Shown piece after piece: positions 1-47,530 of a stretch of 64,000 bases of DNA (positions are counted from its first letter, which is position 1; the number at the start of each line of letters is the position of its first letter). The notes under the pieces were generated by a model. That model worked only from the letters and a program-made list of their open reading frames with translations. It made no database searches and was not told where the DNA came from. The position numbers and the translations under genes were made by a program. The DNA comes from the human T2T-CHM13v2.0 reference genome, Homo sapiens: NCBI RefSeq assembly GCF_009914755.1, contig NC_060931.1. One strand, 5' to 3'.

Positions 1-2370
1 CCCATGCACTCAACACTATTCCATGTCTTCCGTGTGCTCTGGGAAGCTGACCCTTGTCATTTGCATGACTGGGACTCTCTGCTCTCTGTGTTTGTCTTGG
101 GTGGGGCCTATGGAAGGCTTTAGCAGGATATTGGAGGGCAGGAAGAGAAAGAAGTCAGGGTATTTCTTCTTCATGTCCTACTTCGGCCCTGTGCGCTGGC
201 CGTGATCATGTCCTTTCAGGATATAACTCCCTTCGCCCTGTTCTCCTCTGTACCTCTTCTGATGCAGGGCTCCTAAGGAAACACTGCTCCTTTTCCTTGA
301 CTGTTTATCCCTAGGGGTAGTATTATATTCTCACCATTGCTATCCTTTGGGTGCCCTGCCACCTTGTTTGCTCCTTAAGTCTGTCTACAATTAATGCAAA
401 TAACTCCTTTATTAAAATCTCTTTATTTGAACACTCTGGGATGAATTCTGTTTTTTTCTGGGACCCTGACTAATACAGAGGCTGATACTACACCCATATG
501 AAAATACATCAAAGATAATTTGCAAAGCATGTTTGAAAGCTCTACGTTAGGATCACTAGCACTGGCATGCCAAAAGGCACAGAAAAGAAAATACAGGGCA
601 TAGCAAAATATTGTTTCTTCTTAATAGAGAAACTGCCTCAGGGAGAGACTAGGCTGGTGAGAAGGGGGAAAGACTTTAAGAGTCTTATAGACCAGGCATT
701 AGAGAATTGTGATAGGTTTTTGAGCCTGTGATAAAAGCTGTGTTTGGGGAAGATTTTTCTAGCAACCATTTGTAGGAGCAGTGGAATTAGGAAAAAAGGG
801 TGACAGTAAGGAGAACAGTTAAAAGGCTTTTAAAATAAGCCAGTGTAAAGTGATTGGAGGCAGGTTCACAAAGTGGCAACAAGTATGAAAAATAAGGAAT
901 GAAATAAATAGTGAAAGAAACATTATTACTATTGGAATTTGCATTCTTGCTCATGTGATGCATTTGCTTCAAATTGGTGTAAGCTCTTCACATGCAGAGG
1001 GCTCATGTGCCTTGATGTAACATTAGATCAAGTGGCAGAAGCTAAATTTGGAATTAAGGCAATATTTGGTTGTAGAGAACATCATTCTCGTTTCTAGCTC
1101 TTGGACTTTATGTGGAAGCACTTTAAGTCCTAAGAGGCTAATTTTAGTTCAATCTATTTAGTTAACAATATTTCAGATCCTTAATTTTTAGTTTCCAGAT
1201 GATCAGACTCCTCAGCTTGAAATGCAAGGGCATTATAGACTTCAAGCAAATTGCATGTGCATTAAGACTATCGAACTTGGGATGAGTAATCCTATAAAAG
1301 CAAAATCATTGCTGAAGCATTTTTGTAATCATGTATTCCTCCTGCATGTTCATTTGAAAATGTTCTCTTTTGGTGTGGAGGCAAATGAGCTGATTATATT
1401 GAGCTCCGTCCACCAATTTATTTATTTATCTAATAAACATTTTAATGAAGGGGTATCAGGCACGTTTATGTTTTACCCAAGAGACTTATTTAACAGTCAT
1501 TCAATCATTTGGTCATTAATAGTGAAAAGGTCACAGGCTTTGGCATGAGGCAGGCCTGGGTTTGAAACAGATCTTCGCCATTTCCTAGAAGGGTTGTCTT
1601 AAGGCAAATTATTTTTTTAGACATGTTTTCAGTTTTTCTGTTAAAGGAAAAATTGTTTGTAAAGACTGCATTGTGACTGAGAAAGGGCACGCAAACTAGA
1701 TGAGTTTAATCCTATCTCTCACTCCTGACTAACCTTATATGTATACACAAATACAAAATGCTCCAAGTTGGATGTGAAACAAATGGTGGTATAATACTCG
1801 CCCTTAAATATAATTGCAGATAGCCACAAAATATAAAACCATTTACGGATGTGAGAAAATTAGTATAATAAAGAAGAAAATACAGAATAACTTTTTCTTC
1901 TGTTATTTAACTGGTGTAAAATTAATTCCTTGACTCTCATATTTGTCAACAAATATGATAATGTATGTGGTGATGTACTGTTTTGCCTTGAGAAGGAAAA
2001 AATTATAGCCATAAAATATTTAAGAAAATTCTGGAAATAAGAGTAATAGAATTACTTTTTTCAGACATTTCCCAAATGTGTTTTAAATGGCTTTCCTGAA
2101 GGAGAAATAGAGAGGGAGAGAAAAAAAGAGAACATTTAGATATAATTACAGATAAGACCTATGCATAATATTAGTGGACTTAAAAATAATCATGCATATT
2201 CATAACTGAATTGCTAATTAACATTCTCAGAATTTTGTTTAATGTAAGCAAGTTATCCTAATAGGGTTAGGGCAAAAACAATATGCTAAAGATTGAAATC
2301 TGTGGCTATTTAAAAGCACTGAAAACTTGACTAAATTGCCTCTTCCCCTCCCTTAGACATAAACAATTAA

Positions 2371-3094
<724 letters not shown>

Positions 3095-4065
3095 TTAAGA
3101 TACAATAACACTTTGAGCCTTTGCTGATTGTTGATGAGTTTCAAACTCACAGAGGGTTTTGAAGAAAGGCTGGCAGAACTTGAAGGCAGAACACGTGGGC
3201 TGAAGTCCTGTCTATGCCTGTTACTAAATAGCAATGTGAGCTTCTGGAGGACTCTGAACTCTCTCAGCCTCTGTGAAATGGAGATAACATTTCCTGTGGA
3301 GCTGCGTCAGAGATGTTGGGGAAATCATATGGAAATCAAGTATAGCTGTCAACAAGTTTTGTGAATTGTAAATGACCTTAAGCATACAAAGTATTAGTCA
3401 TCTATTCACTCATTCACACATGGAGCATGCCTAGTGTTAGGAGGCACGTGGTGGGGTTGGCGGGGGTGTGGTCATTAACATGGTGAATGAGATCTTCAGA
3501 AGCAGTGTGTTCCCCTGGGTAAGGGCATGGGCTTTGGAGTTAAACCCACCTAGAGTAATTCAGGGCTCATCACTCCGTGACCTCCTGTCCTGAGACCTTA
3601 ATTTGTCCAATGTTACATCATTGTAAATCCCAGTTTCTTTAACGCGGATATGAAAAAACACCATATATTTCACAGGGGAGTTATGAGGATGTGAGAACTA
3701 TGATCAAGCACTTAACTTCACATGTTCAAAGTGCTCAATGACAGTTGGCAACTATCAATCAACTCTTCACACATTATATCTCTAATCAAGGAAAGCAGGC
3801 ATTTGCACCAATAATGACAGAACAAAACAACATGGGGGAGAGTAGTAGTATAAACAACTTTGAGAGTTCATAGGTGGGCTGCCATACTTTCAGCTAGAGT
3901 GATAAGTAAAGACTTTGGAGACAGGTAAATATTAAGAATAAATCTTGAAGAACGAGTCATACCTCAATAGGAAGAGATATGATTGGTGGACAGCATTTTA
4001 GGTAGACAGAGAATAGAATGAGCTAAAGTGTAGAGATGAGAAATTTGAGTACTCCAGTTGTCTAG

Positions 4066-4250
4066 ACTAGCACTGTCTGATAGAACTTTTGTCCATGAAG
4101 GCAATGTTGTATGAACGTTCTGTCCAATATGGTAGCCACTAGTGGCTGTTGAACACTTGACATGTGGATAGTGTGACTGAGGAGTTGAATTTTTTATTCT
4201 ATTTAATTTTAATTAGTATACATTTTAAAACCACATCTGACAAGTGCCAG
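4066..4250. mobile_element. MER3-like hAT element
   Basis: GCACTGTCTGATAGAACTTT...GTCCAATATGGTAGCCACTAG motifs. Confidence 0.6.
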
Positions 4251-6924
4251 CTCAAATCATAGGATACACGGAGAGGAGTTTAGTGTGATAAGTTCCAAAC
4301 AGATTGGCAAATTTCGAAGAACTTTACTGCTAGGCCAACAAGTTTAGATTCCAAAATAGAACAAACATATTTAGAAGCAGGCAAAACAAAAGAATACGTT
4401 TATGAAGGAGACCAAAAAGTTGCAGAGAGAGAAATAGGAAGGCCAGGAATCCAACAAGGAATGGGCATTGAAGAAAGACTTGCCTCGTACTGTTAGTTAG
4501 AAGCCAATGGATATGGGAAGAAAATTTGTTAGATTTGGTAATTCAGAGCTTCTTTGTGACTTTCAGAAAAAAAGTTTCCCCTGAGTGGTAGAGGTGAAGA
4601 GAGTATTGCAGGAAATTAGGAGTAAGGTATGCTGAATAGAGGCAACATGGAACAGCCTTTTTTTTTTTTTTTAAATGTTTGTATTCCTAGAGTTATAGGA
4701 TAAAGCATTACACACTAAGTTAGTCTCAGCAAGTACTGTATATTTGCCAAGTAAGTGGAGTTCTTGCAGGCAAACTAGGTAGTTTCAATGCCAGGTGTGA
4801 AATTATAATGGTTTAGATAAAATTTTGAAGCAATTCTACAAATAAGTACTCTGAGTCATGACATTTTTAGGCCACATTGAAAACGCTAGCTGAAAGAATA
4901 CAAACAATGTTGAAATCATATTTAAGCCCCTTGCTGAGTTTATATTCTGAGCTAAGGATAGATTAGCCTCATGCCCTTATATGATGAAAAATTGTTTTGT
5001 TTTTCTTGCACAGCACAGTTAGGTATCAGATAAAGGGGGAGGAGTATCCTCATGGATACCTCAAAAACAAGTAACCCATGGACGGAGGACAGAGAAATTT
5101 CATGCAAAGACAGATTTTCCTATCTCTTATGATTAAATTCTCTCAGTTTCCTCATTATGAAAATCATTTGGGATACCTGATAAATGTACAAAATCTTCTG
5201 CCTCAATTCATACTGGTCAATATAAATCTTAGCTTGGCGATCTGAATTTTTAATTAGCACCTGAGCGATTGTTAGTATCAGGCAATTTTAGGAAATGTTT
5301 ATTTATTCATCCTTTGAACAAACACCAGTGGAGTGTTTTTTCCATATTGCAGACATTCAGATACTAGGACACAAAGATAATTAAGACATGGTTTCTAGTC
5401 TTAAGAAATTGTTCTAGGAGAGGAGACAGTAAATGCCATGTAAGAAATGGCTTGGTAGCTGTTGCAAAAGGACCACAGAGAAGGGCAGCTCAGCATTGAG
5501 GAGACCATGGAAAACTGTGCTTGGGGAAGGTAAAGTTTGAGTAGGGTATTCAAGGATAAGCCAACCAGATATACAGGGAGTGTGAGAGAAAAGCACTCTT
5601 TTCAGGATAAACGTCACATTAAAGACAAGAAGAGATTGTGTTGGGTCTATGAATACTACTGAATTCAACACAGCTGGAAAACAGGTTTTCCATGAGATAA
5701 TGGCCTGTGTGGCAACAGACAAAGGCATTTTTTGTACCAGAGCACAAAAATAAGAGCCTAGTTATTTTCAAGGTAATGTGAAATCATTAAAGGGTAATCT
5801 GGGGTTGGTGAGATTGGAGATAGGGAGACCCATTAAAAACTTAATACATTAATTCAGGTGAGAGGTGATGGTGTCTGACCTAAGGCAATAACCACAGAGG
5901 TAGAATGGAAAGAACAGTTTTTGATAAATAGTTGGTGCTTTGTTGTGTATGACATAATCAGACGATAGTTCTTTTGATCCTTTTATTAATATTGTCTCAA
6001 TGAAATGAACTGAATTGCTGAATAATTGATTTTGTAGATGGCTCACATATGGCTCACATGATACATTTAGCCATGATGGGGAACATATAATTGTTTGCTA
6101 TTTATACCTATGGTGACTTCTTAAATTGGATTGCTATTGGACAAGATTTTCAGTATTTATCCCATTGATTTAAGGAGACACCAACACAGAGGATGGTCTC
6201 AGAGGTTTTCACAGTCGCTTCTGTGGGTATCCCAAACTCTTTGATATTATATAGGTGAGGAAGTATGTATTGCTTACTACTTTTTAAGTTCTTCCTAGTA
6301 TTCTGGCCCTTTGACAGTTTATTCTGTTTGTTTGTTTGTTTTTCCTTCTTTGATTACTTACAGTTGTAATACCTTTTAAAGACATTTTATATCTCTTCCT
6401 TGACTTATTCCAAATTTAAATTAATACATAGAATATGTATATTTACAAAATATGTTAACTAAATGAATTATTTTTGAATTATTTTGAGACTTTCTAAAAT
6501 AGTTTAAAGTATCTTGAGTCGTCATGAAACTAACTTTGAAAGGTGCTGATTTAAAGTGACAATATTTGTGGCCATGCAAGAAAAGAGGCACTGGACATTT
6601 TAATAAGCAGTTTAATAGAATTTAAATATATGACATCCAATTACCGACAGAATACAAAGCATCATAAAGTATGATTTGCAGACATATTTTATAAATTGGA
6701 ACACCTTAAGGATTCATGGCATTTGTGTAAAATGTGTGGTCGTTAACACATTTTAATACATTGATTCTATTGTGGAAGGTCGTGTGACATGGAATGTTAA
6801 ACAATTAAAATGGTCAAATGTACTTCCATGTTTATGTGATTTGCATTCACAGGAAGAAAATGGGTAATGCCGAAGGAACATTGGCCTAGAGAAGCTTACT
6901 GAAGCAAGGGAATTTGGAGTGAGA

Positions 6925-7258
6925 CTTTCTCCCGCTGCGGCTTTCTGCCCCCACACCGCGGCTTTTGCAGCTTTTTGCCTCCGCCGCCGCGGCGTTTTGG
7001 TCCCCGCCGCCGCGGCTTTTTGTGGTTTTTTTGCCCCAGCTCCCACTGCTTTTTGTCCCCCCCGCCGCGGCTTTTTGCCCCCGCCCCGGCGGCTTTCTTC
7101 CGCCGCGGCTTTTTGCCCCGCCGCCGCGCATTTTTGCCGCCGCGGCTTTTTGCCCCCGCCGCCTAAGCTTTTTGCCTGCGCCGCCGCGGCTTTTTGCCCC
7201 CGTCGCCGCGGCTTTTTGCTGCCGCGGCTTTCTGCTCCCGCCGCCACGGCTCTGAGGG
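6925..7258. repeat. GC-rich minisatellite, ~15-23-bp units, consensus ~CCCCCGCCGCCGCGGCTTTTTG
   Basis: About 15 degenerate copies of GCCGCGGC followed by a T4-T6 tract are visible. The array begins abruptly after AT-rich sequence and merges into the KSR1-like 5' region. Confidence 0.9.
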
Positions 7259-7401
7259 CGGGAGCGGCAGACTCCGCTGCCAGCTCTACTGGCGTCCTGG
7301 CAAGGGCAGCGCCGAGGGGCGCTCCCGGTCCAGCTCTCCCGGCTCGGGGGTTCCTTGCCTAGGCGCCCGAGCCCCGGGCTCCCTGCCTCGGCCGCTGTGG
7401 C

Positions 7402-7632
7402 CTGCATAGAGCGGCACTGCGCGCGGAGGCGATGGGAGAGAAGAAGGAGGGCGGTGGCGGGGGTGATGCAGCGGCCGCTGAGGGTGGCGCAGGGGCCCCG
7501 GCCAGCCCGGGGCTGCAGCAGTGCAGACAGCTCCAGAAGCTCATCGGCATCTCCATTGGCAGCCTGCGCGGGCTGGGCACCAAGTGCGCTGTGTCCAACG
7601 ACCTCACCGAGCAGGAGATACGGACCCTGGAG
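7402..7632 (+). pseudogene. KSR1 (exon-1 duplicate): Duplicated KSR1 exon 1 (CA1 / CC-SAM N-terminus); first Met lost (CTG at 7402), second Met ATG 7432 intact; donor GAG|GTAAGG at 7632/7633
   Basis: Translation ([10 protein letters not shown])[67 protein letters not shown] matches recalled human KSR1 [18 protein letters not shown]...[40 protein letters not shown] at ~60/67 residues from Met11. No other KSR1 exon is seen. Confidence 0.92.
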
Positions 7633-7870
7633 GTAAGGGGTTTGGGGACCCGGGCTGGGCTCGAGGAGCGGCCCGGACACCTCCCTTGAGGCCCCAGTTC
7701 ACTCCTGGCCGAGTTGCATCCTTGAGCCCGCGTCGCGCCCTTGGAGGCTTCCCCTCCCTCCTGCACTCGCTGATGGGGCAGCCGAGAGACCCGGGACCAG
7801 CCCTCACCTTGGGCAGGATTTGTGGGGCGAGTGCTTGGTGGGAACTGGGATGGAGGCTCTAGGGTCCCGT

Positions 7871-7893
7871 GGGGCGGGGAGGGTGGGGGTGGG
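7871..7893 (+). other. G-quadruplex-forming motif near the 5' end of intron 1
   Basis: GGGGCGGGGAGGGTGGGGGTGGG: five G-runs with 1-nt loops. Confidence 0.5.
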
Positions 7894-8467
7894 CTGCGCG
7901 CGGACATCCCCTTACCCCCGAATTTCCATCTGGTCCGGCCCTCTCATCTTGTAGGTGAGGAAACCAAAGGCCTGAGGGAGAACTGACTTGCCAGGAACCC
8001 CTGTTAAGGAGAATTACCAAAGTGTGGTTATTAAAGGAGAACTGAGTTGGGAGTCAGACCTGGAGTCCCACACCCTTGGTTAAGTCATTATACCACCTTG
8101 AGTCTGGCCTGTTGACTGAGGGTGAGCCACTCCATCCTCGTCTGATTGTGGGGTCTTGACCTCAAGGGGTTTCGTGCAGGAAGAAGCAAATGGGTTTGCT
8201 TTCCTAGCTCTGTCCAGTACCTTAGGGACCCTGAGGACTGAAGCGATTCTTGGAGAGCCATCTGGTGTATGTCATGCGTGGGCCTTTCTTGAAGGTCTAT
8301 CTGCCCAGTGGGCTGGCTCAGCCCGAATGAACTGTCTTGAATCTTTGGAGTTGTCTGTGTACTTTTAAGGGCTTCTCATCCTTGCACCAAAAGATCCCCT
8401 GGAAATTAGGTGGGAAAACCTTACCTGTTGTGGGGCCTTGTGTTTGTCTTAAAAGTTCGTGCACATG

Positions 8468-8735
8468 ACCAGGTGTGGTGGCTCACACCTGTTATCCTGT
8501 CCTGGATCCCTTGAGTCAAAGAGTTTGAGACCAACCTGGACAATACAGTGAGACCCCGTCTCTACAAAAGATAAAATATTAGCCAGGGGTGGCTGTGCGC
8601 ATCTGTAGTCCCAGCTAGTACTGTGGCTGAGGCAGGAGGAGCACTTGAGCCTGCACTGAGCTGTGATCTCACCAGTGTACTCCAGCCTGGGCCACAGAGC
8701 AAGACCTTGACTCAAAAACAACAACAACAACAAAA
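8468..8735 (+). mobile_element. Old Alu (AluJ-like); a FLAM-like monomer also lies at ~9410-9560
   Basis: Diverged Alu motifs and A-rich tail. Confidence 0.8.
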
Positions 8736-8845
8736 ATTCTTGAAGATTTTGCATTCTGTCCCACTATCCATTGGTTTTCATGTCAAGATAATGTGAGAAA
8801 TTCTTTACAATTGCTTCCAGAAGGAATAGCCTTTTGATTTAGTGC

Positions 8846-9045
8846 ACAGGTGTCCAGTCTTTTGGCTTCTCAGGCCCACATTGGAAGAAGAATGCTCCTG
8901 AGCCACACATAAAATACACTAATGCTAACAACAGCTGATGAGCTTAAAAAAAAAAAAAAAAAAAGGTTTGTGCAGAATTTTGATGATACCCACCACCAAA
9001 GATAGGCGGAAAAGTCCTTGTAGTCACAGGGTTGGACACGGCTGA
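8846..9045. mobile_element. MER30-like hAT element
   Basis: CAGGTGTCCAGTCTTTTGGCTTC...GGGTTGGACACGGCTG termini. Confidence 0.65.
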
Positions 9046-10430
9046 TCTAGTGTCTTGTCGTCCGTTTTGGCTTTCTCCCGGTTTCCAGAATGCAGGTAGA
9101 GATGTAGAGACGTGCTCTCAGGACAGATGTTGAGATAAAAAAATTCGTTGTCATTTATTCCCAAGGACAGCTGTTTGTCATTTGCATTGAAAAAGTCTCC
9201 ATTCAAACTGCTGTCACATATAAAATCTATTTATATAAGTCTGTATTTTTCTGTTGTCTTGGCCTTTGTGGGCAGTAGTGTGTTTTAACCGAGCAAACTG
9301 TCCTTCCAAATAATGAAGCCGAAGTCAGCCTGCCTGCTTGCCATTTTTCTTCCCCTTCCATTTTTCTAACCCCAGGATAGTTGTAAGAATGAATTAAGAT
9401 TTGTGTTTAAGGCCGGGCACAGTGTCTCAGGCCTGTAATCCCAGCACTTTGGGAGGCGGAGACGGATGTATCACTTGAGCTCAGGAGTCCAAGACCAGCC
9501 TGGGCAACATACTGAGACTCCGTCTTGTATAATTAAATTAAAATTTAAAAAAAGAAGAGAAAAAGACCTGTGCTTAAAATTTAAAAAAAGGGGGGAAAGT
9601 GTAATGCAAAATGTGGACTATGCCAGCCATGATTGGGAAAAATAATTTTTCATACAGCATTATCTGTAGACTTGTATTAGCAGCATACTGGTCATAAGCG
9701 TTTTGCTTTCCTCAAATATGATGAGGTAAGCTACTTTAAAGTGTGGTGGGGCTTTCTTCCATGTGGCTCCTGGAGGTGTTGAGTCCCAATTCAGCCAATT
9801 AATTTGGGTTTAGTTTTGATATGGATAAGGGAATCCAGCTTCATTCATGGTGCACACACAGTTTTGCCAATAAGGAAAAAAAAAAGCCACCTGAATGTTC
9901 CTACTCATTAGATGCTATCTGGAGAGCTCCTTCCCCACCCGCACCAAGGCCTGGGCCCTTAAAAAGACTCAGTGCAGCCTTTCTGTATCTCATACTGTAT
10001 TCTGCAAGATGCTCCTGTGAAAGAAAGTTGTGCTGCACCAGCCATCTCCCTCCTGAAGATCCCTGCGGATGAGGATTTGTGTTTTAAAGGTTCTGAGAAG
10101 TCCTGCAACAACAGTTCTCAAACTTATTTGTCCAGGGGATCTTTTCTTCCACTGAACGTAGTTGGGGAGACACGGCCTTAAGCCTTGAGCAGAGAAAGAG
10201 ACAAGAAACTGTTGGCTCACTTACAACCAAGTGTTGTGTTTATGTTTTAGGTTTTTATGAAACTGAGGTGCTGTTTGAGGTTCTAAATCAAACTGGGTGG
10301 TTGAAGAGAGGCTGGTATCCCTGTAGACTTAGCCAGCCATGAGAGGTTGCCTTTTGTTGAAGGAGGTGTTTTACAAAGGGAAATAGGGTGTCTCCTGGGC
10401 ATCACATTAGCACTTAAATACATGTATCAC

Positions 10431-13017
10431 TGAAATGAAATGAAATGATGAAATGATGAAATGATCAAATGAAGAAACGAAATGATGAAATGATGAAATG
10501 AAATGAAATGATGAAATGATGAAATGAAATGATGAGATGAGATGAAATGAAATGATGAGATGAAATGACATGATAAAATGATGAAATGAAATGATGAAAT
10601 CGAATGATGAAATGAAATAATGAAATGATGAAACAAAATGGTGAAATGAAATGAGGAAATGAAATGAAATGATGAAATGAACTGATGAAGTGAAATAATG
10701 AAATGAAATGATGAAAAGAAAAGATGAAATGATGAAATGAAGAAATGATATGAAATGATGAAATGATGAAGTGAAACAATGAAATGAAAAGATGAAATGA
10801 TGAAATGAACAAATGATATGAAATGATGAGATGAAATGTAATGAAGTGATGAAGTGAAATGATGAAATGATGAAATAATGAAATGAAATGATGAATTGAT
10901 GACATGAAATGATGAAATGAAATGACGAGATTAAAAGGTGAAATGAAACGAAATGATTAAATGAAATGATGAGATGAAAAGATGAAATGATGAGATGAAA
11001 TGAAATCATTAGATGAAATGATGAAATCATGAGATGAAGTGAAATGATGAAATGATAAGATGAAATGAGAAATGGAATGATGATGAAATGGTGAAATGAA
11101 GTGAAATGAAATGATGAAGAAATGATATGAAATGATGGAATGAAATGATGAAATGAAGTGAAATAATGAAATGATGAAATAAGGAAATGAAATGAATTGA
11201 CAAAATGAAATGATGAAATGAATGACGAAATGAAAAGATGAAATGAAATAAATGAGATGAAAAGATGCTATAAATTGATGAGATGAAATGAAATCATGAG
11301 ATGAAATGATGAGATGAAGTGAAATGATGAAATGATGAGATGAAATGATGAAATGAAATAATGAAAGGATGAAATGATGAGATGAAATGATGAAATGGAA
11401 TGATGAAATGAAATGATGAAATGGTGAAATGAAATGAGGAAATGAAATGAAGAAATGAAGTGAAATGATGAAATGAAATGAAATGATGAAATGAAAAGAT
11501 CAAATGATGAAATGAAGAAATGATATGAAATGATGAAGTGAAGTGAAATGATTAATGAAATAATGAAATGATGAATTGATGAAATGAAATGATGAGATGA
11601 AAAGATGAAATGAAATGATGAAATGAGATGAAAAGATGAAATGAAATGAGATGAAATGAAATCATGAGATGAAATGAAATCATGAGATGAAATTATGAAA
11701 TGATGAGATGAAGTGAAATGATGAAATGAGGAAATGCAATGATGAGATGAAATGAAATGAAATAATGAAATGAAAGGATGAAATGAGATGAAATGATGAA
11801 AGGATGAAATGAAATGATGAAATGATGAAATGAAATGATAAGTCAAATGATGAAATGATGAAATGGAAAGATGAAATGATGAAATGATATGAAATGCAAT
11901 GATGAAATGATATTAAATGATGAAATGATGAAATGAAGTCAAATGATGAAATGATGAAGTAAATGAAATGAATTGATGAAATAATGAAATGATGAGATGA
12001 AATGATGAAATGATGAAATGGAATGATGAAATGATGAAATGGTGAAATGAAATGAGGAAATGAAAGGAAGAAATGAAATGATGCAGTGAAATGATGAAAT
12101 GAAATGAAATGAAAAGATCAAATGATGAAATGAAGAAATGATATGAAATGAAATGAAGTGAAATGATTAATGAAATGATGAAATGATGAATTGATGAAAT
12201 GATGAGATGAAAAGATGAAATGATGAAATGAGATGAAAAGATGAAATGAGATGAAATGAAATCATGAGATGAAATCATGAGATGAAATTATGAAATGAGA
12301 TGAAGTGAAATGATGAAATGAGGAAATGCAATGATGAAATGATGAAATGAAATAATGAAATGAAAGGATGAAATGAGATGAAATGATGAAAGGATGCAAT
12401 GAAATGAAATGATGAAATGAGGAAATGAAATGATGAAATGAAATGATAAGTCAAATGATGAAATGATGAAATGGAAAGATGAAATGATGAAATGATATGA
12501 AATGATGAAATGATATTAAATGATGAAATGAAGTCAAATGATGAAAAGATGAAATGAAATAAGTGAAATGAAATGAATTGATGAAAAATGAATTGAGATG
12601 AAAAGATGCAATGATGAAATGAAATGACGAAAAGATGAAATAAAATGAGATGAAATGAAATGATGAGATGAAGTGAAATGATGAAATGTTGAGATGAAAT
12701 GATGAAATGAAATGAAAGAATGAAATGAAATGATGAGATGAAATGATGCAATAAAATGATGAAAGGATGAAATAATGAAATGAGATGAAAAGATGAAATG
12801 AGATGAAAAGATGAAATGAGATGAAATGAAATCATGAGATGAAATGATGAAATGATGAGATGAAGTGAAATGATGAAATGAAATGTTGAGATGAAATGAT
12901 GAAATGAAAGAATGAAATGAAATGATGAGATGAAATGATGAAATGAAATGATGCAACGAAATGATGAAAGGATGAAATGAAATGAGGAAATTAAATGAAA
13001 TGATGAAATAGATGAAC
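10431..13017. repeat. ~2.6-kb satellite-like array (GAAAT)n/(GATGAAAT)n with ~610-620-bp higher-order blocks
   Basis: Continuous TGAAA/TGATGAAA/TGAGA units, nearly C-free on the + strand; landmark variants recur at 608-618-bp spacing. Confidence 0.95.
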
Positions 13018-13110
13018 CAAAAATACTTATTCATTTTTTTTCTTGGCATCCTTCTAAGAGTATTTTAGTGAGGTTAATTTCTAAAACTAAATTGCTATTC
13101 AATGGCTTTA

Positions 13111-13485
13111 CAGTTGGCCTTTGCACCACAGGGGTTTGAACTGTGCAGGTCCACTTAGCAAAACCAACAATTCTACATCCTTCTCCACACCCTGCCCATG
13201 AAAAGGATGAGGATGAAGACCTGTTTGATCATGTACTTCCATTTAATAACTAGTAAATATATTTTCCTTATGATTTTCTTTTTCTTTTCTCTGGCATGTT
13301 TGTTAAGAATACAGTATATAAGACATATAACATATTAAATATGTGTTAATTGACTGCTTGTGTTATTTGTAAGGCTTACAGTAGGCTATTAGTAGTTAAG
13401 TTTTGGGGGAGTCAAAGTTATAGTGGATTTTCTACTGTGTAGGGGGGCCAGCACCCCAACCTCCGTGTTGCTTAAGGGTCAACTG
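13111..13485. mobile_element. Tigger2-family (MER28/Tigger2a-like) DNA transposon
   Basis: Termini CAGTTGGCCTTTG...AAGGGTCAACTG with TA on both sides; internal GGGTTTGAACTGTGCAGGTCCACTTA. Confidence 0.75.
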
Positions 13486-16464
13486 TACATGTTATTTCCT
13501 TTCCTGTAAGAGAAAAATGATGAGAAGGTCTTTTCTCCAATAAGTGTATTCAAAATGTAGCAGACTTGAAATGTGTTGGCGCCACCATTTTGCGTCTCAC
13601 TTTGAAAACTTATTATTAAAAATCGTACTAAAGCCTTACTTTTCCAACCTTAGAAAAAATGTTACAAAGAAAAGGAGTGAAACCATGCTAGTTTGCCCTG
13701 AAATTTGAAATTATCTTGTAAAAATATATTTTTACATTAATTGCTTCCAAAATAGAGATCAGTTGCATACAAATGGCAGGTCACCCTAATCCACCCTATG
13801 ACTGCACTTAGATTCATGAGGAATTGTGCCATCTAGAAAGGGCAGAGAAGAGGAGCCACATGCTTTGATTCTGTTGTCACTGTGTACTTACTGCTAGGAA
13901 GAGGGCATGTTTGTGTATTTTTATGCTAATTATTATGCAAGTTGTTAAGGATTTAGGCTTTCAGAACCATATAAAGGTTTTTTCCTTTCAGATATAAACT
14001 ATCTTGCATTGTTCTTCTGATCATATGAGGGATAAATTTGCCTAAATATTCTTCAGACCATAATGTTATGTCCATATAAATGCCAGTAGCAAGAGTAGAA
14101 TCAACCACAACTGCCTTTGTAATTATTAAAAGCATGTGTGCCTATAAGTAATTGGCATTTTATATAATCAAGAATCTTTGATATAATAATCTCTCAACTA
14201 TTTGAAACATGGCTCACATATATTAATTTTATATGCAAATATATGTATAATATCATTGTATATGAAACTAAATTTTGGACTGTAGAACAGCTTCTTAGAA
14301 TCTTGACTTAAATGTCCACAGTAATATTTGACTGAAAAAAATTTAGCACACTGTCACTATGATGAAAAAATTACTATAAAATTATTTTAAAAATTTTCCA
14401 CCCTAACGTTTAGAACATTCTCACATTTGTGGTTAAAACCTATTGTGATTGTTCCTAGAATTTAGATAAAAAATGTTCCAGAAAGTTTGAAGAGAAGCAC
14501 TTTAGTCAATTTGTATTTGTTCAAGCATGAAGAAATGGCATTTCATTGACATTTTAAAAACTATTCAGATTCCCTCTTTGAATTCAAGTGTTTCAAAGAT
14601 ATCTTATTTTTAAATACCAAAATAGGAATAGAATATGAAGGGCTGGTTATGAGTAATATGATACACTTTTATGAGAGGATGAGATTACAATAACAATACC
14701 TCCTCTCATAGAATAGCCAGCAAGTCTCCACTAAATAACAGTGCCTTGATTTTATAGATGTTTAATCTTGGATATTGAGTTAATGTGAACCATTTGTAGA
14801 CACAGGAGTTTATTAAAGAGTTATATAATATCTTTCAAGTATTTAGAATAGTGTTGAAATTAAGCCTGCATCCCCACGATTTTCAGAGGTGCTGATGCCT
14901 AATAAACTCAACCCCTTGCATGCCAAAATTGGCTTAAAGCCCACCCGTTACCCAAGCTACACTTCAAGCATCAAGGCTCAAAAATGTAATTTTAAATATG
15001 CAAGAGTTTGAGGAATTCACTACTCACACTTTCTTGAACAGTCTATCCAAGTGCATCAAGCAAAATGTGAGTAAAGAAATTTTGACCAAAGGATTGATAG
15101 TAATGTTGAATACTTTTAATAGTAGATCTAAGATTAAAAGGTGAGAGTGAGGGTGAGAAGAGTGTATGAATGCTTTGTGTTCTGACAAAGAGAATGTAGC
15201 ACCCATGTCCTACGTGCTCGGTTGCATTGCCAGTGCCCACGGTAGGCTATTTTATCCCAGTTTTTAGTTTTTTTTGTTTTGTTTTGTTTTTTTCTTTTCA
15301 GGAGAATTAGTCCAAGACCAATAACTCCATAACTGGTAGAATTGGAAGACTTCAATAGTGCTTAACATTTTGTACATAGCTTTATAACAGTTTTCTTTTT
15401 CTTTTTTTCTGAGAGATTCTTTTCAATATACCCAATCATGGTCGAACTCAAAGTCATTGCTTATTTAAAATCTACAACTGCTGACGTTTTGTATCCTTCA
15501 CATTCCAGGTAATTGGTTTTTTTGTGCATTTTCTGTATTTTTCTCCATCAATCTGCCTAGATATTTGTTAGATTTAATATTTTAATATTTTTCTGAAAAA
15601 GTGAGCTTTTGCAGTTTTAAACATATACTCAGTTGTTTTAATTCTGCTTTTTCATGTACTATTTCCTCGTTTTTTTTTTTTTTTTTGATACTATGTGGGA
15701 AGCCAAATAATTTAAAGGAAACTTGGATAGTAAGGACTCAGAGGAACGGAAGTTAGTTGGCTGATTCAGATGTTTGGTGGCATAAGACTCTGTTAGTAAT
15801 CTAGGCAAGCAGTAATGACAGCATCAAGGGAGTGAGGATGGACTGATAGTGTAGAATTTAAGATATAAGGTAGAATTTGCTTCCTTAATGAGTTCAGGTT
15901 TGCGTGTGTTGGGTACAAAAGTTTGATGGGACATCCGTGAAGAGAATTCCAGCCATAAGTAGTTATAAAGGTCTGGAGATCAGGAGAAATCAGAGCTAAG
16001 GGTAGGTATTCGGAGCCATCAGTATTTAGGGAGAAATGGGGCTACCCAGAAAGAGTGAGTGGATTGAAACAGAGGCCATTGATTTCAGACCAAGGTAAAC
16101 AGAAGTGTGCGCTTTGATTTTTACAGGGGGAGGAAAAACCCATAATTGGTGTTTGAGCCTGTGAGAACAGTACTGTGGGCTCCCAGCATGCTTTGCTGGG
16201 TTTGATCTGTTCTAGATGTTTTTATGCTGTCAGTCTGTGATTCTCCTTCCAGACGTGGGGTAGAGTGCATAGTCAGAATATAGCCAGAGCAGCTGACAGA
16301 GGTCAAGATTCATTTTTAAGCAAAGATTCAAGAAGTTAAAAACCACACACAAGTGTTTTACTGGGCATCCTTATCCAACTACCCTATATCTTCACTTTGA
16401 AAATAGTTTAAACATTGCCTGAGAGGACACAGAACTAATAGACTTTTGGAATTCTTCTTTGCAG

Positions 16465-16553
16465 GCCTGTAAATTACTCTCTGATGACTATGAACAAGTG
16501 CGCAGTGCTGCAGTCTAGCTTATCTGGGTTGTCAGTCAGCTCTATCCTGAAAG
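16465..16553 (+). pseudogene. INTS4P: INTS4-like exon (parent ex7, 89 nt, phase 0->2) with premature TAG 16516-16518
   Basis: ctttgcag|GCC TGT AAA...: ACKLLSDDYEQVRSAAV*LIWVVSQLYPE(S), then |gtcagt. Confidence 0.93.
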
Positions 16554-17288
16554 GTCAGTGCGGGTGTAAGCTGGCTTTTGTTGATTGTGAAGCCGTTTTC
16601 CTCTCCTCTCACCATGCAAAAAGCCCACTTCTAGAAAAGAAATGTTGGTTAGATTTTTGGAAGGCAATGGGGAGTAAGGGAAAAGCACAGGCCCTGAAAA
16701 TCAGATTGCCTGGTCCTCATTTTTCATCTCTGATAGGAACTTTCTGTACACCTTCGGAAAGACACTTCTTTTGTCCTAATCTTCTCATCCATAAGTGAAG
16801 AAATTGGAATATCTTTCTTAAATGGTTTTCAGTACTTTACAATAAAATCTTTAAAATTGTTTGGGACCCATTTTAGTTTGGCTTGCGCCAAATGCCAAAG
16901 ATACCAGATGAGTTTGAGAATAATGATCTCTTATGTAGTTTTCCTGGTTAAAAATATTTTCACAGCAATTAAATTAACCACAGTGATTCTTTGAGGAGGT
17001 AGGCAATATTATTTATTATATTTTGTAAGATAGAATATTATATTTATAAATATTTATCTTTTATTTATAAATATTTATAGAATATTTTATTTTTCCTTGT
17101 ATAGGAAAAAGAGGTGTTTTTTCCTCTTCATTAAACTGCCAAAATTTGAAAACCAGAATGGATTAATAAACCTGTAGGAGTAGGCTCCATTTGTAGTAGA
17201 CTCCATTTTAGGACTTAGACATATACAAAGAAAAGGACTAAGTGGAAATTGTCTCTTCTTTTAGGACTGGATTGATAAGTAAGTTTTA

Positions 17289-17607
<319 letters not shown>

Positions 17608-18402
17608 TCAAAAAAAAAAAAGAAGAAGAAGAAGAATTTCAGTTACAGAAGATAATAAACTTAAGGATATGAAATATTCGGTGGAAGCTAGTTTTTGATA
17701 ATTTCATAAATCTTTGAACCTTTGGTGGGTTACGTACTTTTTTTTTAAGGCAGGGTCTTGCTCTGTGGCCCAGGCTGCAGTGCAGTGATGTGATCTCGGC
17801 TTACTGCAACCTCCAACTCCTGGGTTGAAGCAATTCTCATGCCTGAGCCTCCCAAATAGCCGGAATTACAGTTGCGCCCCACCACACCCAGCTCATTTTT
17901 TGTATTTTTAGTAGAGATGAGGTTTTGCCATGTTGGGTAGGCTAGTCTTGAACCCCTGGCTTCAGGTAATCTGCCCACCTCAGTATCTCAGTGTGCTGGG
18001 ATTACACGCCTGGCTGAACCTTTGGTGGGTTACACACTTTTATTCAATACATTGAAAATTTGCACCTGATTGCAGTGGCTCAGCCCTGTAATCCTAGCAC
18101 TTTGGGAGGTGAGGCGGGCGGATTGCTTGATCTCAGGAGTTTGAGATCAACCTGGGCAACATGGTGAACCGTCTCTACTAAAAATATAAAAAATTAGCTG
18201 GGTGTGGTGGCATGCTTTTGTAGTCCCAGCTACTCAGAAGAGTGAACTGGGAGGATCACCTGAGCCCAGGAAGTTGACACTGCGGTGAGCAGTGCTCATG
18301 CCAACTGCACTCCAGCCTGGGTGACAGAAGTGAGACCCTGTCTCAAAAAAAAAGCATAATTTGCAATGCAACTGAAAGAGTTGGTTTGTACTCCTAGAGT
18401 GA

Positions 18403-18687
<285 letters not shown>

Positions 18688-19225
18688 TGAGTAGCTGGGA
18701 TTGCAGACATGTGTCACCGTGCCTGGCTAGCTTTTATATTTTCAGTAGAGAGGAGGTTTCACCATGTTGGCCAGGCTGGTCTCGAACTCTTGACCTCAAG
18801 TTATCCACCTGCCTCAGCCTCCCAAAGTGCTGGGATTACAGGCGTGAGCCATTGCACCCAGACTGTATTTATTTTTTGAGACAGGGTCTTGCTCCGTCAT
18901 CCAGGCTGGAGTGCCGGGGTGTGATCTCAGCTCACTGCAACCTTCACCTCCAGAGCTAAAGTTATGTTCCCACTTCAGCCTCCCAAGTAGCTGGGACTAT
19001 CAGCGCATGCCACCATGCCTAGCTAATTTTTGTATTTTTTTTGTAGAGATGAGGTTTTGCCATATTGCTCAGGTTGGTCTTGAACTCTTGGGCTCAAGCA
19101 ATCTACCTGCCTGGGCCTCCCAAAGTGTTGGGATTATAGATGTGAGCCACTGTGCATGGCCTGAATCTGCAGACTTAGATTCATGTTTTGTTCTAAGTGA
19201 TTTCATTTCTTTTCTTTTAATTTAG

Positions 19226-19346
19226 CATTGTCCCAATTCCTTCTTCTAATGAAGAAATACGCTTAGTTGATGATGCGTTTGGAAAAATTTGTCACATGGT
19301 CAGTGATGGCTCTTGGGTGGTTCATGTTCAGGCAGCAAAACTGTTG
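19226..19346 (+). pseudogene. INTS4P: INTS4-like exon (ex8, 121 nt)
   Basis: tttag|C ATT GTC...: IVPIPSSNEEIRLVDDAFGKICHMVSDGSWVVHVQAAKLL|gtaagt. Confidence 0.93.
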
Positions 19347-19920
19347 GTAAGTTATACTTTTTATGTATGTATGAATGCATGTATATATTTATTTGTTTTC
19401 TTTTCTGTAGAAATGAGGCCTGTGTGGCCCAGGTTGGTCTCAAACTCTTGGCCTCAAGCAGTCCTCCTGCCTCAGCCTCCCAAAAGACTGGGATTATAGG
19501 CTGGGTGCGGTGACTCACACCTGTAATTCCAGCACTTTGGGAGGCGAAGGCGGGTGGATCACGAGGTCAGGAGATTGAGACCATCCTGGCCAACATGGTA
19601 AAACCCCGTCTCTACTAAAAATACAAAAATTAGCTGGGGCATGGTGGCGCACGCCTGTAATCCCAGCTACTTGGGAGGCTGAGGCAGGAGAATCGCTTGA
19701 ACCCGGAGGTGGAAGTTGCAGCGAGCCAAGATCACGCTGCTGGACTCCGGCCTGGTGACAAGGAGGAGACTCTCATCTTAAAAAAAAAAAAAAGGCTGGG
19801 ATTATAGATGTGAGCCACTACACCCAGCCAATAATCCTTTTTTTAAATGAACACATTGCTTGTTAAGTTTTTACAAACATTTTGAGAAACTACAGATGGG
19901 GCAGTGTGACCTGAATTTAA

Positions 19921-20115
<195 letters not shown>

Positions 20116-20412
20116 TAGAGATGGGGTCTTGCTTTGTGCCCAGGCTGGTCTTGAATTCCTAGGCTCAAGTGATCCTTCTGCCTTGGCCTCCCAAATTGTT
20201 GGGATTACAGGTTTAAGCCACTACTCCCAGCCCCAGAATTTCTTAATATAGAAAGAAATAGTTCACTCTCCTGTTCACTTTTAGAACTAGAAAGAATCTT
20301 AAAACATAATTCTATTAACCCTACTAGGAATTAAGATAGCCGGAGCCTAGAGAAAAAGGAAAACAATAAAAAAAAAGTTTTTCCCATTTATTAAGCACTT
20401 GTTATGTCCTAG

Positions 20413-20746
20413 TTCAGGAGGCTCAAACCCCCAGGCTGTGGACCAGTCCTGGTCCATGGCTTGTTAGGAACCAGGCCACACAACAGGAGGTGAGTGGTAG
20501 ATGAGCAAGTATTACTGCCTGAGTGCTGCCTGCTGTCAGATCAGCAGCTGCATTAGATTATCATAGGAGTGTGAACCCTATTGTGAACTGAGCATGTGTG
20601 GGATCTAGGTTTCATGCTCCTTGTGAGAGTCTAATTCCTGATGATCTGAGGTGGAACAGTTTCATCCTAAAACCACCCTGCTTCACCACCCTCTCTGGTT
20701 TCTTCAATGAAGCTGAACCCAGATGCCAAAAAGGTGGGGGACCACT
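20413..20746. mobile_element. MER1B hAT element
   Basis: GTTAGGAACCAGGCCACACAACAGGAGGTGAG...GCCAAAAAGGTGGGGGACCACT. Confidence 0.75.
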
Positions 20747-21336
20747 ATCTTAGATAATTTGAAGGAGGCCCCTTACATATATTTTCTCATTTTCTCTTTA
20801 CAGTAATCCTGCAAGATAGATGCCATTATCCAGTTGGGGCATGGTGGCTCATGCCCATAATCCTAGCACTTTAGGAGGCCGAGGTGGGTGGGTCACTTGA
20901 GCCCAGGAGTTCAAGACCAGCCTGGGCAACACAGCTAGATCCCATCTCTATTTTTCAAAAAATAAAATTTTAAAAAATTTAAGAAAAATTTTTTTAAATG
21001 CTGTTATCATTTTCTAGATGAGAAAACTAAGGCTCTGAGGAGTTAAGTAAGTTATCCAGCTTATACAGACAGAAAATTGTAGAGTGAGGTCAGATCCTGA
21101 TCTTGCATCTTTTAGCCTGGTACTTTTCTGTTTTCTTTTTGAGGACTCAGCACATTTATTGAAAATTTTTAACTTTTGTGGCTCACGCCTGTAATCCCAG
21201 TACTTTGGGAGGCCAAGGTGGGCGGATCACGAGGTCAAGAGATTGAGACCATCCTGGCCGACATGGTGAAACCCCGTCTCTACTAAAAATATAAAAATTA
21301 GCTGGGCGTGGTGGTGCACGCCTCTAGTCCTAGCTA

Positions 21337-21708
<372 letters not shown>

Positions 21709-23209: not shown

Positions 23210-24579
<1,370 letters not shown>

Positions 24580-24929
24580 AAAAATTGACACATTGTATAT
24601 ATGGGGCACAAGTTGATGTTTTGATACACATCTATGTTGAATATTAATCCAATCAGGATAGTTAGTATAGTTATCACATCATACATTTATCATTTCTTTG
24701 CCATGAACTTTCAACAGCCTCTCTTACAGCTATAATATTGTATATTTTGTAATATACAATATTTTACTGTTAATCATAGTCACCTTTATGTGCAGTTGAA
24801 CACCAGAATTTATTTCTCTTAATTGTGACTTTGTATCTGTTGTCCAGTCTCTTCCCATTCTCTCCTACTCCCTCCCCTCCCCAGTGTCTGCTAACCACTG
24901 TTATACTCTCTGCCTCTATGATATCAATT

Positions 24930-26077: not shown

Positions 26078-30330
<4,253 letters not shown>

Positions 30331-30346
30331 TAAACAAATCTGCATA

Positions 30347-30609
30347 CAGATTGAGTATCCCCTATCCAAAATGCTTGAGACCAGAAGTGTTTTGGATTTT
30401 GTTTTGTTTTGTTTTGTTTTTGGATTTTGGAATATTTTATTTGTATTAGACTTACTTGTTGGGCATCCCAAATCTGAAATATGCTCCAAAATCCAAAATC
30501 TGAAGTGCTCCAGTGAACATTTCCTTTGAGCATCATGTTGGTACTCAAAAAGTTTTGGATTTTGGAGCATTTTGGATTTCAGATTTTTGGAATTGGGATG
30601 TTCAACCTG
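30347..30609. mobile_element. MER46-like Tigger MITE
   Basis: TA|CAGATTGAGTATCCC...GGGATGTTCAACCTG|TA inverted termini. Confidence 0.75.

Positions 30610-33563: not shown

Positions 33564-33788
<225 letters not shown>

Positions 33789-37058: not shown

Positions 37059-37241
<183 letters not shown>

Positions 37242-42554: not shown

Positions 42555-42952
<398 letters not shown>

Positions 42953-44985: not shown

Positions 44986-45201
<216 letters not shown>

Positions 45202-47377: not shown

Positions 47378-47530
<153 letters not shown>

What the first reader, a model, noticed from the sequence alone, without database searches (positions are those of the whole stretch)
7432..16553. In-frame KSR1-INTS4 chimeric gene built by segmental duplication
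Seen: a KSR1 exon-1 copy with a strong Kozak ATG (GCGATGG, 7432) runs 201 nt to a GT donor in phase 0. The next recognisable exon (16465, INTS4 ex7-like) starts in phase 0, and INTS4 exons 1-6 are absent. Inference: the headless INTS4 duplicate captured a CpG-island promoter and first exon from an unrelated gene (KSR1 is on chr17, INTS4 on chr11), giving exon shuffling of a RAS-MAPK scaffold N-terminus onto Integrator HEAT repeats. As it stands, the spliced frame encodes 67+17 = 84 aa ending at TAG 16516. With that one base reverted it would run 413 aa to TGA 52715-52717.
Basis: partly seen in the sequence, partly recalled or inferred. Interest (0 to 1): 0.85.

Follow-up and report, generated by a model that had tools for sequence, protein, structure and literature searches.

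The report
INTS4 pseudogene with KSR1 first exon
A partial copy of the INTS4 gene landed beside a widely scattered copy of the start of the KSR1 gene and is now transcribed from it, but the fused reading frame is broken in several places, so it is an ordinary transcribed pseudogene and not a new protein-coding gene.

Summary
The ATG is at 7432 and 201 nt run to a GT donor. The exon at 16465 starts in phase 0. TAG is at 16516, giving 84 aa, and the read-through frame has 413 codons to TGA 52715. Exon 1 is KSR1-derived. INTS4 homology starts at 15690, and exon 2 begins at INTS4 residue 237.

The locus is RefSeq's INTS4P1. NR_146906.1 already joins 7632^16465, and NR_146905.1 skips that exon and loses the frame.

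The KSR1 piece is one of at least 40 dispersed, mostly pericentromeric copies and is older than the INTS4 duplicate. It carries KSR1 from its transcription start onward, not the upstream promoter.

The TAG is shared by all three 7q11.21 copies. INTS4P1 also has a 13-bp deletion, and INTS4P2 a different frameshift. The duplicate lacks both ends of INTS4.

Verdict: a chimeric transcript, yes; a chimeric protein gene, no. Interest is low. The only modestly new points are the KSR1 origin of exon 1 and this duplicon's recurrent use as a transcription start (8 of 40 places).

The parts
1..6925 (.). Duplicon derived from a GRM8 intron; forms the left flank of the block
   Evidence: 95% identity to chr7:128186491-128193377 (minus strand) over query 1-6925, and 99% to the two other 7q11.21 blocks; that place lies inside GRM8.
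6938..7251 (+). GC-rich tandem repeat with a unit of about 22 bp, immediately upstream of the transcript start
   Evidence: Tandem Repeats Finder rows 6970-7251; 7 motif matches against 0.23 expected; the same motif lies upstream of the KSR1 piece in 10 of 10 paralogous loci and is absent from the true KSR1 locus L025.
6930..7950 (.). CpG island spanning the repeat, exon 1 and the start of the intron
   Evidence: GC 0.63-0.76; 98 CpG, observed/expected 0.79 over 1021 bp. For 7221-7919 the value is 0.65, against 0.80 in the KSR1 parent.
7221..7919 (+). KSR1 homology: gene start, 5' UTR, exon 1 and 287 bp of intron 1
   Evidence: 87.0% identity to chr17:28397927-28398623. Alignment. KSR1 gene start is 28397924.
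7254..7632 (+). INTS4P1 exon 1 (RefSeq NR_146905.1 and NR_146906.1)
   Evidence: GT donor at 7633.
7432..7632 (+). 67 codons in the KSR1 frame, from the Met that corresponds to an internal KSR1 ATG. The upstream in-frame ATG of the parent is lost to a 14-bp deletion.
7466..7468 (+). Second ATG, in another frame. In the exon-2-skipping isoform it opens a 372-codon frame that runs into the INTS4 frame.
   Evidence: It is the first ATG of INTS4P2's NR_027392.2, where the frame is 245 codons.
7920..10434 (+). Distal piece of KSR1 intron 1. About 6.8 kb of the parent intron is missing between this piece and the previous part.
   Evidence: 93.5% identity to chr17:28405387-28407881. It is contiguous with exon 1 in all sampled copies.
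10435..13016 (.). Simple satellite of GAAAT-like units
10400..15689 (.). Rest of the multi-copy, mostly pericentromeric duplicon. It ends in a run of 17 T (15670-15686).
   Evidence: 33 further matches on chr1, 7, 13, 14, 15, 16, 17, 18, 21 and 22; most of the long ones end at query 5277-5292, which is window 15676-15691..
15690..64000 (+). INTS4 duplicon, continuing past the window to chr7:66422454. It corresponds to chr11:77892868 down to 77821116.
   Evidence: Substitution divergence is 2.49% outside exons.
16465..16553 (+). Alternatively included exon 2, covering INTS4 residues 237-265
16516..16518 (+). TAG where the parent has CAG (Q254); present in all three chr7 copies
19226..19346 (+). 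Exon 3, covering INTS4 residues 266-306
52599..52719 (+). Exon with a 13-bp deletion after 52663 relative to the parent (121 nt against 134 nt). This creates the TGA at 52715-52717.
   Evidence: The INTS4P2 homologue keeps 134 nt.

Best explanation
The finding is the 5' end of INTS4P1, an unprocessed, transcribed, chimeric pseudogene made by juxtaposition of segmental duplications at 7q11.21.

How it arose (order inferred from divergence):
- An old, widely dispersed duplicon was already present. It consists of a GC-rich tandem repeat, then KSR1 from its transcription start through exon 1, then parts of intron 1.
- Later a 72-kb internal slice of INTS4 was inserted at its edge. This slice runs from the intron before residue 237 to about 13.5 kb short of the gene's end.
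- The fused block was then copied within 7q11.21, giving INTS4P1, INTS4P2 and LOC101929322.

How it works (inferred from anatomy):
- The CpG island formed by the repeat and the KSR1 5' end starts transcription where KSR1's own transcript starts.
- The intact KSR1 exon-1 donor has lost its own exon 2. It therefore splices to the first usable INTS4 acceptors, at 16465 or 19226.
- Every reading frame ends early and far upstream of the last splice junction, so the RNAs should be non-coding and sensitive to nonsense-mediated decay. Any function would be at the RNA level.
For: Shown:
- Exon 1 comes from KSR1.
- INTS4 homology includes introns from 15690 onward, with 96-97% identity over the aligned blocks.
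- The duplicon/INTS4 junction and the TAG are identical in 3 of 3 chr7 copies. Only these 3 copies plus the parent exist (4 of 4 candidates).
- RefSeq models use the KSR1 donor in all three copies.
- Disabling lesions: TAG at Q254 and a 13-bp deletion in INTS4P1, and a 1-bp deletion in INTS4P2.
- Reading frames: 84 aa with exon 2 included, 74 aa with it skipped, and 372 aa (INTS4P1) against 245 aa (INTS4P2) from the second ATG.
- The 5' and 3' ends of INTS4 are not duplicated.
- KSR1 exon 1 differs from the parent at 13 of 201 nt. I counted 5 synonymous and 8 non-synonymous changes by eye, about what neutrality predicts.
- INTS4 exons show 6 synonymous and 7 non-synonymous changes.
- The CpG island is retained, with observed/expected 0.65-0.79.
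- Age order: the KSR1 copy's branch is 0.026, with 6-7% divergence from the parent. Total INTS4 divergence is 2.49%.
- The same duplicon coincides with a same-strand gene start at 8 of 40 places, against 0.35 expected for the 39 copies.

Inferred: promoter activity, and nonsense-mediated decay (from the 50-55-nt rule, established knowledge).
Against: - No primary transcript, CAGE or methylation data could be seen. Transcription rests on RefSeq 'BestRefSeq' models only.
- INTS4 exons are less diverged than the rest: 13/1201 = 1.08% against 1136/45658 = 2.49%, p = 4e-4. This could hint at past constraint. It is no longer significant once constraint on the parent branch is allowed for (p = 0.08 at 0.65 times the intron rate).
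- 10 of 10 sampled KSR1 copies keep the ATG, the open frame and the GT donor. These were the ten best-scoring copies, they are related to one another, and a GC-rich 201-nt exon rarely gains stops.
[quoted passage not shown] Its peptides are in a supplement I could not open.
Confidence: 0.85

Rival explanations
1. One reading: a KSR1-INTS4 fusion protein gene that is, or recently was, functional. It would join a RAS-MAPK scaffold N-terminus to Integrator HEAT repeats and be inactivated by a single base.
For: - The 7632^16465 junction is in frame, and the first AUG has a strong context.
- A curated model contains the junction.
- INTS4 exons are less diverged than introns.
Against: - The TAG lies 17 codons after the junction and is shared by 3 of 3 copies, so it predates their spread.
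- A second lesion, the 13-bp deletion, sits in this copy, and a different frameshift in INTS4P2.
- 3 of 5 RefSeq models skip the in-frame exon.
- Phase matching has a 1-in-3 prior.
- KSR1 exon-1 changes look neutral.
- The product would hold only about a third of the CC-SAM domain. It would also lack INTS4 residues 1-236 and the C-terminal region, which are the parts reported to bind INTS9/11 (PMC7980224 passages, PMC5934644 abstract).
Confidence: 0.04
2. A protein is made from the second ATG (7466) in exon-2-skipping transcripts. It would have a novel 55-residue N-terminus, which is KSR1 exon 1 read in another frame, fused to INTS4 residues from 266 onward. The old database names INTS4L1 and INTS4L2 suggest such a product.
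For: - The frame has 372 codons in NR_146905.1.
- In INTS4P2's NR_027392.2 this ATG is the first in the transcript.
- A proteomics list names the INTS4L2 protein (PMC4553339 passage).
Against: - In INTS4P1 it lies behind a strong upstream AUG at 7432.
- The two paralogs end the frame at different places for different reasons, 372 against 245 codons, so the frame is not conserved.
- All its stops lie upstream of several splice junctions.
- Peptides from the INTS4 part are nearly identical to genuine INTS4, so a list entry does not discriminate between them.
- The product would lack both INTS9/11-binding ends.
Confidence: 0.05
3. The transcripts act as functional long non-coding RNAs, for example in chromatin or gene regulation or as decoys for INTS4-targeting microRNAs. 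This is compatible with the best explanation and adds a function to it.
For: - A preprint reports INTS4P2 as a hit in a CRISPRi screen in pancreatic cancer cells, with knock-down changing marker expression (10.1101/2025.06.25.661419, passages).
- INTS4L1 appears among differentially expressed genes in a lung cancer study (PMC10370362, one passage).
Against: - CRISPRi at this promoter would hit several near-identical copies, and also the antisense LINC03006 that overlaps INTS4P2 exon 1.
- A paper on recurrent 517-605-kb 7q11.21 deletions spanning INTS4L1 to INTS4L2 regards them as likely benign and the pseudogenes' function as unclear (PMC7886492, passages).
- No RNA family matched the window (0 matches).
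Confidence: 0.2

Closest known systems
INTS4P1 (formerly INTS4L1), RefSeq transcribed pseudogene NR_146905.1 / NR_146906.1
   Same: It is the same object. The exons at 7254-7632, 16465-16553, 19226-19346 and onward are exactly the annotated ones.
   Different: The annotation names only INTS4 as parent. That exon 1 comes from KSR1 was not stated in the annotation given. It also did not turn up in the searches I ran: with 18, 0 and 0 papers, none of the 18 being about gene structure as judged from titles, abstract starts and the passages I read.
Chimeric transcripts created where segmental duplications from different genes are juxtaposed, especially near centromeres. Examples recalled from memory, not checked here: BAGE from KMT2C fragments; USP6/TRE2.
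   Same: Pieces of unrelated genes are brought together by duplication. A promoter and first exon from one drives splicing into exons of the other.
   Different: Here the fused frame is closed in every copy. There is no sign of a selected protein product.
KSR1 CC-SAM (CA1) domain, PDB 5VYK and 2LPE
   Same: Residues 15-67 of the exon-1 translation align to chain residues 2-54.
   Different: Only about 53 of 149 construct residues are encoded. There are 7 amino-acid differences from the human parent. The rest of the domain is absent.
INTS4 HEAT-repeat scaffold of the Integrator cleavage module, PDB 7CUN and 7BFP
   Same: The exons in the window encode INTS4 residues 237 to about 640 with 7 amino-acid-changing differences.
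   Different: It lacks residues 1-236, and the paper states that HEAT repeats H1-H5 contact INTS9 (PMC7980224 passages). It lacks the gene's 3' end. It is also interrupted by a stop and a frameshift.
Pericentromeric interspersed GC-rich repeats described at the edges of pericentromeric duplications in 1990s-2000s work (recalled, not verified)
   Same: A short GC-rich tandem repeat sits at the 5' edge of the KSR1 duplicon in 10 of 10 sampled copies. The reverse complement of its core resembles a motif I recall from that literature.
   Different: I could not confirm the identity. The literature searches found nothing relevant in the held library.

Membership tests
Unprocessed (duplicated) transcribed pseudogene of INTS4 | Homology to the parent includes introns and conserved splice sites | tested here: met
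   collinear blocks of 96-97% identity from 15690 to 63861. AG/GT splice sites at all 9 INTS4-derived exons in both the copy and the parent.
Unprocessed (duplicated) transcribed pseudogene of INTS4 | Disabling lesions or truncation relative to the parent | tested here: met
   Q254 changed to a stop, and a 13-bp deletion. The 5' end (residues 1-236) and the 3' end of the gene are absent.
Unprocessed (duplicated) transcribed pseudogene of INTS4 | Evidence of transcription | tested here: inconclusive
   Only curated RefSeq models and RNA-level mentions in papers.
Protein-coding chimeric gene formed by exon shuffling | Exons from two unrelated parent genes joined in one transcript | tested here: met
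Protein-coding chimeric gene formed by exon shuffling | Junction in frame | tested here: met
   7632^16465 is in frame. The other annotated junction, 7632^19226, is not. The chance expectation is 1 in 3.
Protein-coding chimeric gene formed by exon shuffling | Open reading frame running through both parts | tested here: not met
   There is a stop 17 codons after the junction, present in 3 of 3 copies.
Protein-coding chimeric gene formed by exon shuffling | Frame conserved among copies, or signs of purifying selection | tested here: not met
   The paralogs carry independent frameshifts. There are 6 synonymous and 7 non-synonymous changes in the INTS4 exons. KSR1 exon-1 changes look neutral. Ape orthologues are not available.
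Protein-coding chimeric gene formed by exon shuffling | Protein product detected | not testable with these tools
   One proteomics list entry (PMC4553339 passage), with the supplement closed. No Ribo-seq or mass-spectrometry data are on hand.
CpG-island promoter | Longer than 200 bp, GC above 50%, CpG observed/expected above 0.6 | tested here: met
   1021 bp, GC 0.70, observed/expected 0.79. Promoter activity itself was not tested.
KSR1 promoter capture | KSR1 sequence upstream of its transcription start is present in the copy | tested here: not met
   Homology starts at chr17:28397927, and the gene start is 28397924. Upstream there is only weak resemblance between the repeat unit and short KSR1 motifs.

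The most novel reading that the evidence does not exclude
The KSR1 start/exon-1 duplicon is a portable 'promoter plus phase-0 coding first exon' cassette, with at least 40 places in the genome, and it seeds new transcription units wherever it lands. Its ATG, open 67-codon frame and donor are kept in 10 of 10 sampled copies. Some copies, including INTS4P1's 84-codon frame, might therefore yield short peptides carrying the first helix of the KSR1 coiled coil. These could interfere with KSR1/BRAF pairing, or the cassette could form in-frame fusions elsewhere.
Probability: 0.07. Interest if true: 0.55.

Novelty: new member of a known kind. Interest (0 to 1): 0.25.

Why it matters
Mostly as a correction. 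An apparently exciting in-frame fusion of a RAS-MAPK scaffold and an Integrator subunit turns out to be an annotated, multiply disabled transcribed pseudogene.

Two smaller points may be useful:
- The first exon and transcription start of INTS4P1, INTS4P2 and LOC101929322 derive from KSR1. The annotation does not say this, and I did not find it in print.
- The same KSR1 5' duplicon coincides with annotated same-strand gene starts at 4 further lncRNA loci. That makes it an example of a dispersed CpG-island fragment that repeatedly gives rise to new non-coding transcription units in duplication-rich regions.

In addition, the direct repeats formed by the INTS4P1 and INTS4P2 blocks lie 522.5 kb apart. 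This fits the size of the recurrent 7q11.21 deletions reported as likely benign (PMC7886492).

Tried and rejected
- **INTS4 exon numbering ('exon 7', 'exons 1-6').** Not checkable. Only chr7 transcripts are held, and no full-length INTS4 protein could be obtained. I give residue numbers from PDB alignments instead. My recollection that INTS4 has 23 exons is unverified.
- **Protein word search (search for homologous proteins), to see whether public sources hold an INTS4L1/L2 protein and which N-terminus it has.** Not run. Spliced sequences may not be typed. The longest unspliced open stretch around an exon is 122 aa, so the tool's length band (67-213 aa) would exclude the entries of interest.
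- **Rfam scan of the whole window.** 0 matches.
- **Literature on a KSR1 link.** Searches found 0 papers. One search found 18 papers (17 listed) naming INTS4P1/L1/P2/L2, all lists of copy-number, expression or screen hits.
- **Literature on the pericentromeric repeat.** One search found 1 unrelated paper. One search found 232 papers, with none of the 20 listed relevant. Older duplication papers are largely outside the searchable library.
- **Exon constraint.** Exons are less diverged than introns, but this is explained by constraint on the parent branch. I rejected it as evidence for selection on the copy.
- **Direction of transfer, with the chr17 locus as recipient and not source.** Rejected. 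The exon is part of the functional KSR1 protein seen in two PDB entries with slightly different sequences. The chr17 copy also lacks the tandem repeat that all sampled paralogs share.
- **Search of chr11:77810001-77820000.** It gave no chr7 match, but it did not list the self match either, so that blank is weak. The 3' limit rests.
- **Data I could not use.** Supplements of PMC4553339 and of the preprint may bear on protein detection and guide specificity, but they are closed. No reads, CAGE, Ribo-seq or ape assemblies were available.

Full report
**Observation**

The sequence facts hold.
- The ATG at 7432 sits in the context GCGATGG and is the first ATG of the annotated transcript.
- From it, 67 codons run to 7632, followed by a GT donor.
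- The exon at 16465-16553 has AG/GT borders. It reads 17 codons from its first base and then TAG at 16516.
- Spliced as in RefSeq, the frame is 84 codons. Read past the TAG, the next stop is TGA at 52715-52717, codon 414.

**What exon 1 is**

- The stretch 7254-7700 matches the 5' end of KSR1 on chr17 at 88% identity.
- A local BLAST gives two collinear pieces: 7221-7919 (87.0%, chr17:28397927-28398623) and 7920-10434 (93.5%, chr17:28405387-28407881).
- The translation matches the KSR1 CC-SAM chains 5vyk_A and 2lpe_A at E 1e-21 and 2e-19. Similarity ends within two residues of the exon end when intron codons are added.
- In the parent there is an in-frame ATG ten codons upstream. In the copy it is lost through a 14-bp deletion. 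Which ATG RefSeq uses for KSR1 I could not check.
- KSR1 homology starts within 3 bp of KSR1's annotated gene start, 28397924. The upstream KSR1 promoter was therefore not copied.
- In its place lies a GC-rich tandem repeat of about 22 bp, at 6938-7251. With the KSR1 5' end it forms a 1-kb CpG island with observed/expected 0.79.

**The KSR1 piece is a dispersed duplicon**

- One search lists 40 places (82 first-look candidates, 40 scored, so a lower bound) on chr1, 2, 7, 15, 16, 17, 18 and 22, at 85-100% identity.
- In the ten best-scoring copies the tandem repeat precedes the KSR1 piece in 10 of 10. It is absent at the true KSR1 locus.
- The sequence that follows, up to about 15690, travels with it in many copies, and the long matches end at the same point.
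- A tree of 1.3 kb of the intron piece puts the four 7q11.21 copies in one clade on a branch of 0.026. The parent's branch is 0.035.

**What the rest is**

- From 15690 to the end of the window, the sequence is collinear with INTS4 on chr11, introns included.
- Substitution divergence is 1136/45658 = 2.49% outside exons and 13/1201 = 1.08% in exons.
- PDB numbering (7cun_D) places exon 3 at residues 267-306, and hence the start of exon 2 at A237.
- The 7.1 kb of INTS4 just 5' of the breakpoint, and the last 1.6 kb of the gene, have no second copy.
- Both chr7 copies end their INTS4 homology at the same point, chr11:77821116, inside a common interspersed repeat.
- The duplicate is thus a 72-kb internal slice of INTS4, headless and tailless.
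- Only three copies exist besides the parent, all at 7q11.21.
- All three share the same junction to the older duplicon, at a run of T, and the same TAG. So there was one fusion event, the nonsense change arose before the block spread, and the block was then copied.
- INTS4P1 differs from INTS4P2 at 5 of 904 compared sites. INTS4P2 differs from LOC101929322 at 0 of 904.

**Order of events (inference)**

The KSR1 duplicon is about 6-7% diverged from its parent and the INTS4 slice 2.5%. The KSR1 cassette was therefore there first, and the INTS4 slice arrived beside it. This is the reverse of a headless INTS4 copy reaching out to capture a promoter.

**Coding potential**

- The TAG is a C-to-T change of CAG (Q254).
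- The TGA at 52715 exists because INTS4P1 has a 13-bp deletion after 52663.
- INTS4P2 keeps those 13 bases but has a 1-bp deletion in the exon homologous to 45503-45708.
- Across the three copies, 2 of 5 RefSeq models include exon 2 and 3 of 5 skip it. Skipping (89 nt) breaks the KSR1 frame after 74 codons.
- In the skipped form, a second ATG at 7466, in another frame, opens 372 codons into the INTS4 frame.
- In INTS4P2's model that ATG is the first one, and its frame is 245 codons.
- These frames differ between paralogs, and all end upstream of several junctions. By the usual rule, the RNAs should be decay targets (inference).
- The substitution pattern gives no sign of selection on the copy. 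There are 6 synonymous and 7 non-synonymous changes in the INTS4 exons, and a neutral-looking mix in KSR1 exon 1.
- The lower exon divergence fits constraint on the parent branch alone.

**Would a protein work?**

- Exon 1 encodes about 53 of the 149 residues of the CC-SAM construct.
- According to passages of PMC7980224, INTS4 HEAT repeats H1-H5 make the specific contacts with INTS9.
- The abstract of PMC5934644 says both the N-terminal HEAT repeats and the C-terminal region are important for binding INTS9/11.
- The duplicate lacks residues 1-236 and the 3' end. Even an uninterrupted product would miss both binding ends.

**What is known**

- The locus is RefSeq's INTS4P1.
- I saw only the search listing for most of the papers naming it or its paralogs. 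For four I saw passages:
  - a preprint treating INTS4P2 as an lncRNA hit in a CRISPRi screen (10.1101/2025.06.25.661419);
  - a paper on recurrent 517-605-kb 7q11.21 deletions that calls INTS4L1/L2 pseudogenes of unclear function (PMC7886492);
  - a differential-expression mention (PMC10370362);
  - a proteomics list naming the INTS4L2 protein (PMC4553339, supplement closed).
- None links exon 1 to KSR1, and two searches combining KSR1 with pericentromeric duplication terms found nothing.

**A wider pattern**

- Of the 40 places, 8 have a same-strand annotated gene beginning between 500 bp upstream of the copy and its end. These are KSR1 itself, the three INTS4 pseudogenes and four lncRNAs.
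- For the 39 copies, 0.35 would be expected from genome-wide gene density.
- The copies are related to each other, so these are not independent events.
- The cassette keeps its ATG, open frame and donor in 10 of 10 sampled copies. That sample is the ten best-scoring copies.

**Verdict**

This is a real chimeric transcript of a known kind, at an annotated pseudogene. There is no support for a chimeric protein gene.

Noticed in passing
window 1-6925: The left flank is a separate duplicon from an intron of GRM8 (95% identity to chr7:128186491-128193377). It is shared at 99% by the two other 7q11.21 blocks and ends right at the GC-rich repeat.
   Followed up: partly
window 10435-13016: A 2.6-kb simple satellite of GAAAT-like units lies inside the multi-copy duplicon.
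   Followed up: no
chr7:66347254 and chr7:66869764 (window 7254 and L002): The INTS4P1 and INTS4P2 blocks are direct repeats 522.5 kb apart with more than 99% identity. This spacing fits the 517-605-kb recurrent 7q11.21 deletions described in PMC7886492 and suggests recombination between the blocks. That is my inference; I did not see it stated in the passages I read.
   Followed up: no
other KSR1-duplicon copies, e.g. chr16:32503391-32504685, chr7:59132123-59136953, chr22:6418343-6421292: Gnomon models on the strand opposite the KSR1 piece carry names such as 'translation initiation factor IF-2-like', 'glycine-rich protein DOT1-like' and 'circumsporozoite protein-like'. Some are typed protein_coding. 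They overlap the GC-rich tandem repeat and look like low-complexity artefacts.
   Followed up: no
chr7:66422454-66440366 (beyond the window): INTS4 homology ends at chr7:66422454. The last three exons of NR_146906.1 (66437130 onward) therefore come from other sequence, and INTS4P1 is chimeric at its 3' end too.
   Followed up: no
chr1:142533332-142571195 (L007 region): One KSR1 copy abuts the KMT2C pseudogene KMT2CP3 and coincides with the start of lncRNA LOC101927452. From memory, KMT2C fragments near centromeres gave rise to the BAGE genes, so this may be a similar mosaic.
   Followed up: no
chr1:121404935-121472492: LINC02798 is typed protein_coding in the gene table and starts 1354 bp upstream of a same-strand KSR1 exon-1 copy. 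Whether its coding part uses that exon could not be checked.
   Followed up: no
L002, chr7:66869106-66870136: The first listed exon of LINC03006 (NR_038378.4, minus strand) overlaps INTS4P2 exon 1 in antisense. Promoter-targeted knock-down of one would probably affect the other.
   Followed up: no
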